Origin: the human T2T-CHM13v2.0 reference genome, Homo sapiens
DNA length: 64,000 nucleotides
Direction: 5' to 3' (one strand)
Assembly (NCBI RefSeq): GCF_009914755.1
Contig: NC_060941.1
Shown: piece by piece, positions 391 through 32,118 of the stretch
Numbering within the stretch: the stretch's first letter is position 1
Layout: each line of letters opens with the position of its first letter
Made by a program: the position numbers and the translations under genes
The notes under the pieces: model-generated
Database searches by the model: none
The model's input: only the letters and a program-made list of their open reading frames with translations
Told to the model about the DNA's origin: nothing

Positions 391-884
391 GTCATACTAC
401 ATATGACTCAGCCACGTCAATGGAAAAAGTAGACTGGATAGTGACGTACCCGCAGAAAACGAATACAACAATCTGTCATATAGATCTGACCGCAGTCAGA
501 TTCTGCAGTGAAGTAAAGCCGGTAAACTTGCATGCAACGATCTTCATACCGCATCCAACAAAGCCACGTAAATCCAAAAGCAGTGCGACTCTGGATAGTG
601 AAACACATGCGGGAAACTTGAATGGAAAGATGTTTATACTGCCTCGGATGGAGACACGTAAATGAAAAAACAGTCCCGCTTGGGATAGTAAAGTAGGGGC
701 GCTAAACTTAAATATAACGATCCGAATATCGCATCTGAGTGTGCCAAGTAATAGCAGAGACCAGTCAGAATACGGATACTGATGTGGGTGCGGTAACCTT
801 AAATCCAATGACGGTCACACCGCATTTGATTAAACCAAGTGAAACCTAAAGCAGCCACACTCTCCAAAGTACGCGCTGCTGACT
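391..884. repeat. Cassette 1 tail: degenerate ~90-bp tandem units, CpG-rich
   Basis: Recurrent (G)CAGTC..GATAGTGAA..GC..AAACTT.AAT..CACGTAAAT motifs. Homologous to 4241-4720 and 6588-6950. Confidence 0.75.
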
Positions 885-1069
885 TATACACAAGTGTGCT
901 AACAGGCCCCGAAGATCCGATGCAAACGCGTGGAGGTAACGAAAGAAGCTCCCATTCCACCTTGTCAGCAGACAGCGTTTAGAGATCTCCTTTGCTGATG
1001 TAACGCGAAATAACAGTAACTGATAGAGCAAGTTCCGCACTTAACCTGAGCCTAAACGACCAAGGCGCT
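885..1069 (-). pseudogene. Extremely diverged U2 snRNA-derived sequence (cassette 1 head)
   Basis: Minus-strand TGGAATGGGAGCTTCTTTCGTTACCTCCACGCGT matches U2 TGGAATAGGAGCTTGCTCCGTCCACTCCACGCAT at 26/34. The 5' part AGCGCC..TTAGGCTCAGGTTAAGTG..TATCAGTT is colinear with the U2 5' end. The span is ~185 nt, like U2. Confidence 0.7.
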
Positions 1070-1104
1070 GCCGGCATTAGCGTTCGTCCACGGCCCTCCT
1101 CCTC

Positions 1105-2190
1105 TTAGAGCCAAGTGTATTAATAGGTCCCGACAATCTGAGTGGAGATGACAAGAGGCTCCCATTCTATGAGTGGAGATAACAAGCTGATGACGAAACC
1201 CGGGTGCTCCCCTCATTGGCACCCAGCAGGCAGCACCGGCCCGCTCCCGGAGCCCTCCATCCTGCGCTTTCCCAAACCCCCATCAAAACACCAACCCAGT
1301 CTCCTCCCTCTCAAGCCATTTTCCAACCTGCCTGGGAGCCACTCTGATCTCCCAGAACACCTCATTTTGTGAATTATAAACCTTTTCACACCTTCTCGGT
1401 CCCTGTGTGATGTCACCAGTCTCGATTTCCAAAATAAATTTGGGGTCAGTGGTGGGGCTGGGGTCCATCTAGTTCTGCAGAGTGGGAACAGCACAGAAGC
1501 TACCGGACTTGCTGTGCGCATAGTCCAATTTGGGTGCAAAAGCCTCCCCACTGGACTGGGTGGCCTCTTATCAGTGACAAAACCAAGGGATTTGCTAGTC
1601 CCTCATTTACACACTGGTTACTGAGTGCCTCCCGTTGAGTTGAACACTTTTACTTCCGGGGAAAATTCGTTGTTCCAGACCAAGTTGACTACTGTCTTCA
1701 CTGGACATTCTAAGAGGTGCTTTTGGTCCCAGGGAAATACCCCGGAAGCTGTGAAGTACAACAGCCTTAGGCCCTGTCCCAAATATTCTAATTTAATGGC
1801 TGTACGGTGGGGCTAGGACCTCAGGATGATTCACTCCACCGAGGTATCCGGTCGTCCTGAAGTATAGCCAAGGTTGAGAAGCACCGATAGACACGGAAGA
1901 ATTTTCACTCCCCTTCAGCAAAGACCTTTGTAGGTATGACCTCCTTTGGCTGTCATTGTTCAGAATGGTGGGGGGTCTGGCAAGAGCGAGTCTTAGGGCT
2001 GAGACTAAACCCAATTTATAGGATTTAAGTCCTCTAGATGGGAGGTGGGACAACTGGGACTGCTCACTTGTTCACATGTACATCGGCCTGGTGTATTTCC
2101 ACCAGAAACTGTTCCTCATTATACTGTCTGCCTGGGCCGATCCCTCCTGTCATAAGTTGACACAAGTAAATTGCAAAGTCCTAATCACCT
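1105..2190 (-). mobile_element. Probable ERV internal (env SU-like) remnant replacing the cassette 1 promoter
   Basis: Broken minus-strand frames contain gammaretroviral SU-like pieces (DFAIYLCQLM; NPLVLSL..W..GL). It starts abruptly after the promoter-proximal remnant at 1084-1104. Confidence 0.4.
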
Positions 2191-2194
2191 AATT

Positions 2195-2971
2195 TTGGTG
2201 GAGTCTTTAGGTTTTTCCAAATATATCACCTTCAAACGAGGATAATTTGACTTCTTCCTGTCCTTTTTTTTCTTCTTCTTTTTCTTTTCTTTTTTTTTTT
2301 TTTTAAGACAAAGTCTCACTCTGTCACCCAGTCTGGAGTGCAATGGCACGATCTCGGCTTACTGCACCCTCTGTCTTCCGGGTTTAAGTGATTCTCAGAT
2401 CTCAGCCTACTGAGTAGCCGGGACTACAGGTGTGTGCCACCATGCCCAGCTAATTTTTTTATTTTTGTAAAGGCAAAATTTCACCATGTGGCCTAGGTTG
2501 GTCTTGAACCACTGGACCCAAGCAATCCTCCTGCCTCTGCCTCCCAAAGTGCCAGGATTACAGGTGTGAGCCACTGCGTCCAGCAAGAATAATTTCAATC
2601 TCTGGTAAATGCACCTGATAGAACTGTGAATTTCCAACTTCTTTGTCTTTTCTTTTCTCTTTTCCTTTCCCTCTCTCTCTCTCTTTCTCTCTTTCTTTCT
2701 TTCGTTTCTCTCTTGTTGCCCAGGCTGGAGTGCAGTGGCGATCTTGGCTCCCCACAGCCTCTGCCTCCCGGATTCAAACAATTCTCCCGCCTCAGTCTCC
2801 CAGAGTAGCTGGAATTACAGGCACGCGCCACCATGCTCGGCTAATTTTGTAGTTTTTGTAGAGATGGGGTTTCTCCATGTTGGTCAGGCTGGTCTCGAAC
2901 TCCCAACCTCAGGCGATCTGCCTGCCTCGGCCTCCCAAAGTGCTGGGATTACAGGTGTGAGCCACCGCGCT
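2195..2971 (-). mobile_element. Old L1 fragments with two antisense Alus (about 2270-2584 and 2705-2971)
   Basis: GTGGAGTCTTTAGGTTTTTCCAAATAT...GATAATTTGACTTC is antisense L1 sequence. Standard Alu motifs with T-rich tails follow. Confidence 0.75.
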
Positions 2972-3741
2972 TAGCTACAAAGGAGTTTTTTTAGTGTGCA
3001 AAACCAAACAAAACAGCAAGGAGAAAAGTCCCCTGATTTCCACCCTAGTGCTTCTCAATCACACTCAGCATAGCAGCAACAAAACACAACCACATCTATC
3101 GAATCTTATTGCTCACGGCTGTTAAATATCAAATCTCAATCAGCAATTTTAGAGACGGATCCTCCAATGCTTTTGGTTCCCAGTGTTTCACAAGCAAACG
3201 GACAGAAATCGGGAGGGACATAGGAGAAGAATCAGTTAAAATCTCTAAGACCAGTTAAATGAAGTCTCCTGAAAATGACACTGAAACGGAGACAGCAACC
3301 AAGACAAGGAGGACGAGGCAGATTAATACAAAGAGCAGAGCCTGCGGTGTCAAACCTGTTTTTTAGCCGAGAGGGACTTTACTGAGAGGGGCCTCTAACC
3401 CCCTAAATCTTAGAAGGGACTCTAACCCTCCTCGATCCGGCCTCTAACCCGAGGTCGGTCAAGCGTCCTTGCCTTTTATTAAGAGGGGCCTCTAACCCAC
3501 TCTCTTTTAGGAAAGACTCTAACTCCATTAAGTTGGGCCTCTAACCCAATCCCATTCTTTACCCGGGCACTCCACCACTTACCCAAAGTCAGTCTACTGA
3601 CTACTGCAGTGCTGCAGTCTACTTCCTTTGGGTTGGGGGAGTTTCTTCAGTATCGTCCCTTCCATCATTCGCCAGAAATATGTTATAGGACCCCAACACT
3701 TCCCCAAAGCACTATAGTCCCATCTGTGGTGGCCAGAAATA
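2972..3741 (-). mobile_element. ERV1 (MER4/MER41-group) internal leader adjoining the LTR
   Basis: Abuts the 3' end of the LTR, contains CCTCTAACCC reiterations and PBS-like TGGC starts on the minus strand. Confidence 0.5.
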
Positions 3742-31002: not shown

Positions 31003-31191
31003 GGGAGCCCCATTCCTGGAGGTACTGCAATACCAGGTCGACGCGTGGAGTGGACAGAGCAAGCTCCTATTTCATCTCCCTGCTCCAAAAATCTATCTAA
31101 TATAATTGTTCTCTGATAGAGGACGTATCAGATATTAAACTGATAAGAACAGATACTACACTTGATCTTAGCCAAAAGGACGAGAAGAGAT
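31003..31191 (-). pseudogene. RNU2-4P: Near-intact U2 snRNA gene copy with genomic flanks
   Basis: About 90% match to U2 by eye, with GTAGTA and the Sm site GATTTTTGG intact. 3' box-like GTTTGCAAGGTTAGA at 30970-30984. The symbol is inferred from remembered position upstream of ARL4D. Confidence 0.9.
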
Positions 31192-31231
31192 GTCGTCGCC
31201 TTCCTCCCTGCCATCACCGTCCCACTCTCAT

Positions 31232-31251
31232 CTACATTCAAGACGCGGTGA
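31232..31251 (-). promoter_or_regulatory. U2 PSE
   Basis: TCACCGCGTCTTGAATGTAG versus the U2 PSE TCACCGCGACTTGAATGTGG, in the same CTGGGGCTC...GATGAGAGTGGGACGGTGA context. Confidence 0.9.
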
Positions 31252-31361
31252 GAGCCCCAGCCTCGCTCCTTGCCTCATTCACTTTGTCTTGTCCACACCA
31301 ATATTGACGCCATTACACACTCGGGCTGATTTCTTATTCTCCACGTTTTAAAAGAAAAATC

Positions 31362-32048
31362 TGCCGGGCGCAGTGGCTCACGCCAGTAATCCTAACACTT
31401 TGGGAGGCCGAGGCGGGTGGATCACAAGGTCAGGAGATCAAGACCATTCTGGCAAACACGGAGAAATCCCGTCTCGACTCAGGAGCTCGAGACCAGCCTG
31501 GGGAACACGGTGAAACCCCATCTCTACTAAAAATACAAAAAAATTAGCCGGGCGTGCCGGGCGCGGTGACTCACGCCTGTAATCCCAGCACTTTAGGAGG
31601 CCGAGGCAGGTGGATCACGAGGTCAGGAGATCGAGACCATTCTGGATAACACGGAGAAACCCCGTCTCTATTAAAAATACAAAAATTAGCCGGGCGTGGT
31701 GGCACGTGCCTGTAGTCCCAGCTACTTGGGAGGCTGATGCAGGAGAATCTCTTGAACCTGGGAGTCCGAGGTTGCAGTGAGCCAAGATTGCGCTACTACA
31801 CTCCAGCCTGGGCGACAGAGTGAGACTCCATCTAAAAAAAAAACAAAAACAAAAAAACAAAAATTAGTCAGGCGTGGTGTCGCGCGCCTGTAATCCCAGC
31901 TACTAGGGAGGCTGGGCAGTAGAATCACTTGAACCCGGGAGGCGGAGGTTGCAGTGAACCGAGATCGCGCCACTGCACTCCAGCTTGGGCGACAGAGCGA
32001 GACTCTGTCTCAAAACAACAACAAAACAACAACAACAACACAAAAACC
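31362..32048 (+). mobile_element. Nested Alu cluster between the U2 PSE and DSE
   Basis: Several Alu arms flanked by AAGAAAAATCT / AAGAGAAATCT. Confidence 0.85.
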
Positions 32049-32085
32049 AAGAGAAATCTTACACCAGTTCTAGTTCCGGGGTTTC

Positions 32086-32118
32086 CGGGCTTTCATTTCG
32101 AATTTGCATGCCCTGCCC
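32086..32118 (-). promoter_or_regulatory. U2 distal sequence element (octamer 32102-32109)
   Basis: Minus-strand GGGCAGGGCATGCAAATTCGAAATGAAAGCCC matches the U2 DSE context, with the GC box mutated. Confidence 0.85.

What the first reader, a model, noticed from the sequence alone, without database searches (positions are those of the whole stretch)
391..32118. A same-strand series of five U2-derived units at graded divergence
Seen: all units are on the minus strand, and all carry genomic promoter remnants rather than poly(A) and TSDs. The 31191 copy is ~90% U2, the 11870 copy is roughly 70% with full signals, the 1069 and 7134 copies are roughly 55-60%, and the 5134 copy is unrecognisable but has an intact promoter. 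Established: the RNU2 array maps to this chromosomal neighbourhood and is homogenised by concerted evolution. Inference: these are orphans that escaped homogenisation, showing a route from an snRNA gene to new ncRNA genes while the promoter is retained.
Basis: inference. Interest (0 to 1): 0.8.

Follow-up and report, generated by a model that had tools for sequence, protein, structure and literature searches.

The report
Relic U2 snRNA genes beside RNU2 array
The stretch holds decayed, inverted leftovers of human U2 snRNA genes next to the live U2 gene array; most of this is already described, but one leftover keeps a complete snRNA-type gene layout and another keeps only the promoter, now joined to unrelated CpG-rich DNA.

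Summary
The observation largely holds. On the minus strand there are two Rfam-grade U2 copies (31191-31000, 93% to array U2; 11869-11682, 74%). There is also a weak but significant U2-like body present twice (7134-6940 and 1069-875; E about 1e-5), and a U2-type promoter without a U2 body (5400-5135).

The "five graded units" are not one series. The 1069 and 7134 copies are one 99%-identical duplicate that a 2025 preprint reports as human-specific and polymorphic. The units fall into two lineages.

- **RNU2-4P** sits in a complete inverted copy of the array repeat unit. This copy predates the LTR insertion (empty target site), and Alus split its promoter.
- **The other units** (here X1, X2, Y) share their own flanks and match the array only in the U2 body, the enhancer and the PSE region.

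The 17-base Sp1+octamer enhancer occurs 11 times in the whole genome: 9 array units plus X1 and X2. X1 also has the only perfect 3' box found in bases 1-34000. X2, Y and the adjacent 88-90-bp repeats are as CpG-undepleted as the ARL4D promoter, which suggests long-term germline hypomethylation.

Degenerate inverted RNU2 relics here are already in print. The X2 and Y details appear not to be. Activity is inferred, not shown.

The parts
28215..33811 (-). Complete inverted relic of one RNU2 array repeat unit, interrupted by Alus and lacking the LTR
   Evidence: Collinear matches to the array unit: unit 4373-4579, 5607-6145, 1-840, 822-1482 and 2191-3449 at 79-89%.
31000..31191 (-). RNU2-4P body
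   Evidence: Rfam U2 177.9 bits. 174 matches/13 mismatches to array U2. 39 of 45 consensus pairs kept, and the branch-point-binding hexamer and Sm site are present.
31363..32049 (.). Alu insertions separating RNU2-4P's PSE region from its enhancer (octamer at 32102-32109)
   Evidence: Array-unit homology breaks at 31362 and resumes at 32049. Alu/SRP-like hits fill the gap. The octamer is located.
33609..33619 (-). Empty target site of the array unit's LTR13
   Evidence: The array unit has the LTR flanked by a duplicated 6-base site. The relic has one copy of that site and no LTR.
32063..32672 (-). LINC00910 exon 1 (hub annotation), inside the relic's upstream CpG-rich DNA
   Evidence: Bases 32893-32049 align to array-unit positions 1-840, which is -1000 to -160 of the U2 gene, at 85%.
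11682..11869 (-). X1: degenerate U2 body (RefSeq LOC124904147)
   Evidence: Rfam U2 61.1 bits. 135 matches/47 mismatches/12 gap columns against array U2. 35 of 45 consensus pairs kept, but the branch-point hexamer and Sm site are lost.
11665..11681 (-). X1 3' box
   Evidence: The only exact match to the 3' box consensus in bases 1-34000 on either strand. It starts one base after the body.
11870..12140 (-). X1 promoter: Sp1+octamer DSE at 12090-12106, PSE core at 11919-11927, no TATA
   Evidence: nhmmer with the array gene aligns 12138-11690, E 6.7e-25.
5135..5400 (-). X2 promoter: DSE at 5345-5361, PSE core at 5183-5191, no TATA
   Evidence: 74.5% identical to the X1 promoter. The genome-wide search finds only itself and X1. 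The 17-mer is unique to the U2 family.
4851..5134 (-). X2 'body': non-U2, CpG-undepleted sequence
   Evidence: No U2 similarity. CpG observed/expected 1.28. Folding z-score +1.86. Unique in the genome.
4243..4850 (-). 88-90-bp tandem repeats downstream of X2 (the 'stutter' of the preprint)
   Evidence: TRF period 90. Homologous to 393-874 and 6587-6939. CpG observed/expected 1.22.
3855..4242 (-). Dispersed LTR-like repeat ending the CpG-rich domain (the preprint names a MER41C LTR in this block; I did not map coordinates)
   Evidence: About 40 scored genomic copies at about 80% identity. CpG observed/expected 0.45.
6940..7134 (-). Y1: U2-like body with about 25-30 bases of X-type 5' flank (7135-7170), no PSE or DSE
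   Evidence: 24 of 45 consensus pairs kept, against a shuffle mean of 17.9, sd 3.3.
875..1069 (-). Y2: duplicate of Y1
   Evidence: 193 of 195 positions identical to Y1. Part of the 524-2970 = 6589-9034 duplicate.
12181..12466 (-). Alu specific to X1. X2 has the empty site.
5756..6055 (-). Alu specific to X2, about 36 bases from the X1 Alu site. X1 has the empty site.

Best explanation
The first 34 kb of the window is the distal 'graveyard' of the human U2 snRNA gene cluster. It holds DNA-level relics of U2 genes, not retro-copies. All are inverted relative to the live nine-unit array, whose homology ends about 36 kb before the window start. The relics belong to two lineages.

(1) RNU2-4P is the gene of one complete array repeat unit that stopped being homogenised before the LTR entered the array. 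Alus have separated its enhancer from its PSE. It shows no sign of constraint, and its upstream CpG-rich DNA now supplies the first exon of LINC00910.

(2) An older 'X-type' lineage has its own flanks.
- X1 (12140-11665) is still a complete Pol II snRNA-type unit: Sp1+octamer enhancer at about -230, PSE at about -58, no TATA, a 188-base degenerate U2 body and a perfect 3' box. I infer that it is still transcribed through SNAPc and Pol II and cleaved at the 3' box. The RNA lacks the Sm site and the branch-point-binding sequence, so it cannot act as U2 and is probably degraded.
- X2 (5400-5135) is a paralogous promoter. Its homology to X1 ends about 13 bases before the start site, where unrelated CpG-rich sequence and 88-90-bp repeats begin. 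I infer that it is an open, probably active promoter that makes unstructured, unstable transcripts.
- Y is a U2-like body that lacks a PSE and a DSE. In this haplotype it was recently duplicated (1069 and 7134).

Shown: the homologies, motifs, positions and CpG state. Inferred: transcription, hypomethylation and selection.
For: **U2 derivation**
- establish the U2 similarity of four of the five bodies.
- No other U2-like place exists in the 64-kb window: the next nhmmer hit has E=1.4.

**Two lineages**
- Array-unit flanks are found only around RNU2-4P.
- Promoter identity is 48% for U2-1 vs X1 and 44% for U2-1 vs X2. This is like U2-1 vs the chr11 U2-2 gene (40%). X1 vs X2 is 70%.
- The Y 5' flank matches X1 and X2 (2 of 2000 and 0 of 2000 shuffles reach the score). 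It does not match the array flank (1241 of 2000) or RNU2-4P (574 of 2000).

**Constraint on promoter elements**
- The 17-base GGGCGGGGCATGCAAAT occurs 11 times in 3.1 Gb: 9 array units, X1 and X2. The reversed control occurs 0 times.
- It lies at about -230, -237 and -227 in the array gene, X1 and X2.
- In the X1/X2 alignment, identity is 20-22 of 25 per window from -250 to -176 and 21 of 25 at -50 to -26. It is 13-16 of 25 per window from -125 to -51.

**X1 is complete**
- It has the only exact 3' box in bases 1-34000 on both strands, directly after the body.

**Age**
- X1 and X2 each carry an Alu whose site is empty in the other paralog.
- The RNU2-4P unit has the empty LTR site.

**CpG state**
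- Of 319 windows of 400 bases, 15 have CpG observed/expected >=0.85 (median 0.30). Thirteen of these lie on Y2, X2, Y1 or X1, and the other 2 are the ARL4D promoter.
- The ratio of the CpG transition rate to the non-CpG transition rate between duplicated copies is 1.9 and 2.8 inside these parts, against 16.6 and 20 in the adjoining DNA.

**Literature (passages read)**
- Inverted degenerating RNU2 repeats including RNU2-4P and LINC00910, and the polymorphic A-sequence duplication, are described in 10.1101/2025.11.08.687349.
- Four U2 genes carry Pol II, H3K27ac and H3K4me3. One is an Rfam-only variant, 'U2-R30', with 55 differences from U2-1 (10.1101/2020.01.24.917260). X1 is Rfam-only in RefSeq and differs at 47 mismatches plus 12 gap columns.
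- A SNAPc- and Pol II-occupied 'U2-like' gene and seven 'Unknown' loci are reported in PMC3499247.
Against: - I saw no expression, occupancy or methylation data for these coordinates. The tables that would place 'U2-R30', 'U2-like' and 'Unknown-1 to 7' are supplements that I could not open. Equating X1 with U2-R30 is therefore a guess.
- The same preprint says no primers amplified U2-R30.
- X2 has no 3' box within 1.3 kb, even allowing one mismatch. Its body folds worse than shuffles: z = +1.86, and 198 of 200 shuffles fold at least as well.
- Rfam's U2 model does not report Y at E<=10. Y's kept pairs (24 of 45) are only about 1.9 sd above shuffles.
- The CpG transition counts are small: 5 of 61, 1 of 71, 3 of 22 and 5 of 84.
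- CpG richness could come from another function of the repeats, such as enhancer activity. The hub annotation lists enhancers at 3829-4524 and 4570-4734.
- The preprint reports 96-99% identity of the distal flank to great apes, which is a neutral-looking level.
- No outgroup sequences were available, so dates and selection are inferred from paralogs only.
Confidence: 0.7

Rival explanations
1. One reading: one series of array units that escaped concerted evolution one after another. Divergence simply measures time since escape, and the promoter is kept while the body drifts into new ncRNA genes.
For: All units share one strand and lie beside the array. The enhancer 17-mer is shared with the array units only. 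The identities are graded at 93%, 74% and 71%, with the last body unrecognisable. The preprint proposes that inversions remove RNU2 sequences from homogenisation.
Against: Only RNU2-4P has array-unit flanks. X1, X2 and Y share their own flank type. 1069 and 7134 are one recent duplicate. The most diverged units lie nearest the array and the least diverged lies farthest away. X2's homology to X1 ends abruptly about 13 bases before the start site, which points to a rearrangement and not to gradual drift.
Confidence: 0.2
2. All five units are dead relics decaying neutrally. The conserved motifs are survivors by chance. The CpG-rich state belongs to the 88-90-bp repeats or to enhancer activity, not to snRNA-type transcription.
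For: - The distal flank is 96-99% identical to great apes (preprint passage).
- X1 has lost the Sm site and the branch-point hexamer.
- X2 has no 3' box and no structure signal.
- U2-R30 could not be amplified.
- The hub annotation marks enhancers and silencers, and no genes, at X2 and Y.
Against: A 17-mer is kept exactly in two paralogs whose promoters are otherwise 70% identical to each other and 44-48% identical to the array promoter. Conservation peaks at the DSE and PSE. A perfect 3' box sits in the right place. CpG observed/expected reaches 0.94-1.38 from the X2 promoter through the repeats, against a window median of 0.30.
Confidence: 0.25
3. The 1069, 7134 and 5134 units resemble U2 by chance.
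For: Rfam's U2 model is silent there at E<=10.
Against: nhmmer gives E 1.4e-5 and 2.8e-5, against 1.4 for the next hit. The reciprocal search finds all 3 of 3 array copies. The X2 promoter matches X1 at E 8e-34. The 17-mer occurs nowhere else in the genome.
Confidence: 0.02

Closest known systems
Degenerating, inverted RNU2 repeats of the distal flank, with RNU2-4P and LINC00910, and the 'Jana' structural variant (bioRxiv 10.1101/2025.11.08.687349; PMC3795722 for RNU2-4P)
   Same: Same locus and same general reading. RNU2-related DNA in the flank is inverted, diverged and outside concerted evolution. The A sequence (here 524-2970 and 6589-9034) is duplicated in CHM13 and single in GRCh38. The 'stutters' are the 88-90-bp repeats.
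   Different: A term search of the preprint (promoter, proximal sequence element, octamer, U2-like, LOC124904147) returned no passage about a U2-like body or an snRNA-type promoter in Jana.
Transcribed divergent human U2 variants (U2-2, U2-63, U2-R30) and the SNAPc-bound 'U2-like' and 'Unknown' loci (10.1101/2020.01.24.917260; PMC3499247)
   Same: X1 has the layout of such genes: octamer enhancer, PSE, no TATA and a 3' box. It is a U2 known only from an Rfam-type prediction, with a similar number of differences from U2-1.
   Different: Their coordinates are in supplements that I could not read, so identity with X1 or X2 is untested. X1 has lost the Sm site and the branch-point hexamer. The preprint describes its variants' changes as mostly conservative or compensatory.
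Processed snRNA retro-pseudogenes, which make up most U2 pseudogenes elsewhere in the genome
   Same: Degenerate U2 bodies.
   Different: The units here keep 5' flank or promoter homology. RNU2-4P keeps a whole repeat unit. None is followed by an A-rich tail.

Membership tests
U2 spliceosomal RNA (Rfam RF00004) | Covariance-model score at or above the gathering score (46 bits) | tested here: met
   Met by RNU2-4P (177.9 bits) and X1 (61.1 bits). Not met by Y1, Y2 or X2, which give no hit even at E<=10.
U2 spliceosomal RNA (functional) | Branch-point-binding hexamer and Sm site present | tested here: not met
   Both are present in array U2 and RNU2-4P only. They are absent from X1, Y1 and Y2. 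The motifs were taken from the array copy.
Pol II snRNA-type (SNAPc-dependent) gene | Distal enhancer with an octamer about 220 bases upstream | tested here: met
   X1 has it at -237 to -221 and X2 at -227 to -211, identical to the array's 17-mer. In RNU2-4P the octamer is displaced to about -911 by Alus. Y has none.
Pol II snRNA-type (SNAPc-dependent) gene | PSE about 55 bases upstream and no TATA box | tested here: met
   The PSE core is at -58 in X1 and -57 in X2 and aligns with the array PSE. There is no TATA from -40 to -10. Y has no PSE. The core pattern I used was recalled.
Pol II snRNA-type (SNAPc-dependent) gene | 3' box shortly after the RNA end | tested here: inconclusive
   Met exactly by X1 (11681-11665). 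RNU2-4P has one only with a mismatch. X2 (1.3 kb searched) and Y have none. The consensus comes from a PMC3499247 passage.
Pol II snRNA-type (SNAPc-dependent) gene | Occupancy by SNAPc and Pol II, and a capped transcript | not testable with these tools
   No functional-genomics data are held.
Relic of the RNU2 6.1-kb array repeat unit | Collinear homology to the unit outside the U2 gene | tested here: met
   Met by RNU2-4P (28215-33811). Not met by X1, where only unit positions 770-1183 match, or by X2 and Y.
Processed retro-pseudogene | No 5' flank homology, an A-rich tail, and target-site duplications | tested here: not met
   5' flank homology is present in all units. No A-rich tail is seen in the sequence.

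The most novel reading that the evidence does not exclude
X2 is a living SNAPc/Pol II promoter that lost its U2 body. For tens of millions of years it has kept driving transcription through a CpG-island-like stretch of 88-90-bp repeats. X1 and Y are its siblings. On this reading, the 'Jana' block that the preprint places at the distal edge of the recombination-poor BRCA1-RNU2 region would be built from old U2 gene relics. snRNA-type transcription there might shape the chromatin or fragility of that boundary.
Probability: 0.2. Interest if true: 0.65.

Novelty: new member of a known kind. Interest (0 to 1): 0.38.

Why it matters
The U2 array is a textbook case of concerted evolution, and its flanks record what happens to copies that drop out. 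This window gives three datable fossils.
- A pre-LTR array unit.
- An older U2 gene lineage whose enhancer, PSE and 3' box outlived the function of the RNA.
- A promoter that outlived its gene.

If X1 or X2 is active, each is a compact natural test of what an snRNA-type promoter does with a non-snRNA body. They would also explain part of the regulatory signal annotated at this much-studied locus near BRCA1. If they are silent, the finding is an ordinary gene graveyard that is largely described already.

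Tried and rejected
- **Rfam at E<=10 over 1-33000.** It found no U2 signal at 1069, 7134 or 5134. The other hits were Alu-derived SRP or mir families.
- **A profile of four U2-like genes.** It found only the PSE-to-start region of X2 (E 0.0085) and no body similarity. I gave up on the idea that the X2 body is a hidden U2.
- **X2 body against Y.** The weak hit (E 6e-4) is in a shifted register of the 88-90-bp repeat. It is not evidence of a U2 remnant.
- **A shared Alu upstream of X1 and X2.** I first thought it dated their duplication. 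One search showed two independent insertions with reciprocal empty sites, so I dropped that dating.
- **Folding of the X2 body.** It is no more stable than shuffles.
- **ORFs.** There are 11 ORFs of at least 80 aa in 1-13000. The two I scanned (404 aa and 147 aa) have no Pfam family.
- **Chance resemblance and retro-copy origin.** Both rejected; see the rival explanations and the membership test.
- **Supplementary tables of PMC3499247.** They were closed. bioRxiv supplements are closed by rule. These tables may already name X1 or X2.
- **Literature searches behind the 'not found in print' statements.**
  - RNU2 + LINC00910, 1 paper.
  - RNU2-4P, 4 papers.
  - 87 papers held at least 4 of the 5 terms, 12 listed.
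  - 2 papers.
  - 50 papers, 15 listed.
  - RNU2-63P, 8 papers, 6 listed.
  - term search inside the preprint.
  - Older subscription papers on the RNU2 junctions were not searchable.

Full report
**What is there**

The window is CHM13 chr17:44,206,001-44,270,000. Rfam finds two U2 copies above the gathering score, both on the minus strand: 31191-31000 (177.9 bits) and 11869-11682 (61.1 bits; gathering 46). At E<=10 over bases 1-33000, Rfam adds no further U2 match.

I took a U2 gene from the live array (locus L009, fetched) and searched the whole window with nhmmer. This gave 5 hits at E<=10:
- 31190-31001, E 3e-47
- 11861-11690, E 9.6e-20
- 7124-6990, E 1.4e-5
- 1059-925, E 2.8e-5
- one noise hit, E 1.4

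The reverse search with the 7134 body found all 3 array genes in the stretch searched, and RNU2-4P.

The fifth, at 5134, does not align to U2 (27 matches with 305 gap columns). Even a profile of four U2-like genes recognises only its PSE-to-start region (E 0.0085).

Identities to array U2:

| Copy | Matches | Mismatches | Gap columns |
|---|---|---|---|
| RNU2-4P | 174 | 13 | 2 |
| 11869 copy | 135 | 47 | 12 |
| 7134 copy | 118 | 47 | 53 |

**Not five independent units**

Bases 524-2970 equal 6589-9034 at 98.86% over 2447 columns. The two U2-like bodies inside differ at 2 of 195 positions. A 2025 preprint (10.1101/2025.11.08.687349; passages read) calls this block 'Jana'. It reports that the duplicated 2.4-kb A sequence is 99% identical, arose after the human-chimpanzee split, is present in CHM13 and is single in GRCh38. 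So 1069 and 7134 are one unit seen twice, and the second copy is polymorphic in people.

**Two lineages**

RNU2-4P lies in a full, inverted copy of the 6.1-kb array unit. Array-unit positions 4373-4579, 5607-6145, 1-840, 822-1482 and 2191-3449 align collinearly to 33811-28215 at 79-89%.

The array's LTR (unit 4577-5608) is absent from this copy. In the array unit the LTR is flanked by a duplicated 6-base site, and the relic has a single copy of that site. The relic therefore predates the LTR. The preprint cites an estimate of about 27 million years for the related retroviral insertion.

Alus at 31363-32049 now separate RNU2-4P's PSE region from its enhancer octamer at 32109-32102. LINC00910 exon 1 (32063-32672, hub annotation) lies inside the relic's upstream CpG-rich DNA, at array-unit positions 1-840.

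I call the remaining units X1 (11869), X2 (5134) and Y (7134 and 1069). They match the array unit only across positions 770-1183, which is the gene and its promoter. Outside the enhancer and PSE their promoters are as far from the array promoter as the chr11 U2-2 promoter is:

| Promoter pair | Identity |
|---|---|
| U2-1 vs X1 | 48% |
| U2-1 vs X2 | 44% |
| U2-1 vs chr11 U2-2 | 40% |
| X1 vs X2 | 70% |

By local alignment X1 and X2 are 74.5% identical. Y keeps only about 25-30 bases of 5' flank. That flank matches the X1 and X2 flanks (2 and 0 of 2000 shuffles reach the score). It does not match the array flank (1241 of 2000) or the RNU2-4P flank (574 of 2000).

Genome-wide searches gave the following:
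- The X2 promoter finds only itself and X1.
- Y finds only its two copies.
- X1's nearest relatives are ordinary U2 copies at 72-77%.

X1 and X2 each carry an Alu, inserted about 36 bases apart, whose site is empty in the other paralog. Their duplication is therefore older than both Alus.

**Promoter signals**

The 17-base Sp1+octamer element GGGCGGGGCATGCAAAT occurs 11 times in the 3.1-Gb genome: the nine array units, X1 (12106-12090) and X2 (5361-5345). The reversed control occurs 0 times. Its distance from the start is similar in all three kinds of unit (about -230, -237 and -227).

A PSE core lies at -58 in X1 and -57 in X2, and there is no TATA.

In the X1/X2 alignment, identity per 25-base window is:
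- 20-22 of 25 from -250 to -176
- 21 of 25 at -50 to -26
- 13-16 of 25 from -125 to -51

This pattern is what selection on the DSE and PSE would leave. It is an inference from two paralogs only.

X1 has the only exact 3' box in bases 1-34000 on either strand, starting one base after its body. X2 and Y have none, even with one mismatch.

**State of the RNAs**

X1 keeps 35 of 45 consensus U2 pairs, against 41 of 45 for array U2 and a shuffle mean of 18.6. It has lost the branch-point-binding hexamer and the Sm site. Y keeps 24 of 45 pairs (shuffle mean 17.9, sd 3.3). The X2 body folds no better than shuffles (z = +1.86).

**CpG state**

Of 319 windows of 400 bases across the 64 kb, 15 have CpG observed/expected >=0.85 (median 0.30). 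Thirteen of these lie on Y2 with its repeats, X2, Y1 with its repeats, or X1. The other two are the ARL4D promoter. X2's body and repeats reach 1.22-1.38.

I compared transition rates at CpG and non-CpG sites between duplicated copies:

| Region | CpG/non-CpG transition rate ratio | CpG transitions / CpG-site columns |
|---|---|---|
| 88-90-bp repeats | 1.9 | 5 of 61 |
| Y-plus-repeat part of the A copies | 2.8 | 1 of 71 |
| LTR-like part next to the repeats | 16.6 | 3 of 22 |
| Rest of the A copies | 20 | 5 of 84 |

The counts are small, but the direction agrees with long-term germline hypomethylation of these parts. I did not see methylation data.

**Comparison with print**

The general picture is published in the 2025 preprint: a 34-kb distal flank of degenerating, mostly inverted RNU2 repeats containing RNU2-4P and giving rise to LINC00910. 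RNU2-4P's place in intron 1 of that gene was described in PMC3795722.

My term search in the preprint found nothing about a PSE, an octamer or U2-like sequences in Jana. My library searches found no description of X2 or Y.

X1 may already be known as a transcribed variant. Kosmyna et al. (10.1101/2020.01.24.917260; passages read) list four U2 genes with Pol II, H3K27ac and H3K4me3. One is an Rfam-only 'U2-R30' with 55 differences from U2-1, for which no primers worked. James Faresse et al. (PMC3499247; passages read) list a SNAPc- and Pol II-occupied 'U2-like' gene and seven 'Unknown' loci. Their coordinates are in supplements that I could not open, so the link to X1 or X2 is a guess. Passages in PMC13640761 describe hypermutation as a feature that separates snRNA genes from pseudogenes. 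If expressed snRNA genes mutate faster, that could explain why X1's body (26% from U2) has changed more than half the X1/X2 promoter distance. This is inference.

**Verdict**

The set is two lineages of different origin and four independent loci, not a single clock-like series. X1 is a complete but functionally hollow snRNA-type gene. X2 is a conserved promoter on foreign, CpG-undepleted DNA and is the most interesting piece. Its activity is inferred only.

Noticed in passing
window 33609-33619: The RNU2-4P relic unit holds the empty target site of the array's LTR13. It has a single copy of the 6-base site that flanks the LTR in the live units. The relic is therefore a fossil of the pre-LTR repeat unit.
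   Followed up: yes
window 32063-32672: LINC00910 exon 1 lies wholly in DNA derived from the CpG-rich region upstream of a U2 gene and runs across the relic's enhancer octamer (32102-32109). RNU2-4P sits in its first intron.
   Followed up: partly
window 12181-12466 and 5756-6055: Two independent Alu insertions lie about 36 bases apart in the paralogous X1 and X2 upstream regions. Each has its own target-site duplication and an empty site in the other paralog.
   Followed up: yes
window 1-392 vs 3855-4242, and 393-874 vs 4243-4710: Within one duplicated block, the LTR-like part differs at 6 of 388 aligned positions. The adjoining 88-90-bp repeats differ at 46 of 463 aligned positions, plus gaps. 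This points to a mosaic history or faster change in the repeats.
   Followed up: partly
L013, window coordinates about -8281 to -7786: Further copies of the 88-90-bp repeat (E 4e-18 to 4e-9) lie outside the window in the retrovirus-rich stretch, next to another copy of the dispersed LTR-like repeat.
   Followed up: no
window 5512-5602: A purine-rich (CCTCC)n microsatellite lies inside an insertion of about 270 bases between the X2 Alu and its enhancer. X1 lacks it. The hub annotation lists a silencer at 5506-5605.
   Followed up: no
window 15967-17222 (+): An LTR13 copy in the opposite orientation to the relic units, interrupted by an Alu at about 16807-17087. The preprint mentions it.
   Followed up: no
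window 12346-13560 (-): A 404-aa ATG ORF runs through the CpG island upstream of X1 and through Alu sequence. It has no Pfam family and is probably chance.
   Followed up: partly
window 1104-1169 and 7169-7234: Directly upstream of each Y body lies a partial copy of the Y body's own 3' part (E 0.003). This suggests local slippage.
   Followed up: no
window 12400-12900: A CpG island upstream of X1 coincides with exon 1 of the plus-strand lncRNA LOC105371785 (12408-12761). X1 and that lncRNA are therefore divergently arranged about 540 bases apart. A homologous non-Alu stretch lies upstream of X2 (6056-6239).
   Followed up: partly
window 39761-39859 (-) and 58904-59007 (+): Two U6 pseudogenes score above the Rfam gathering score (60.0 and 85.8 bits). 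They match the hub annotation.
   Followed up: no
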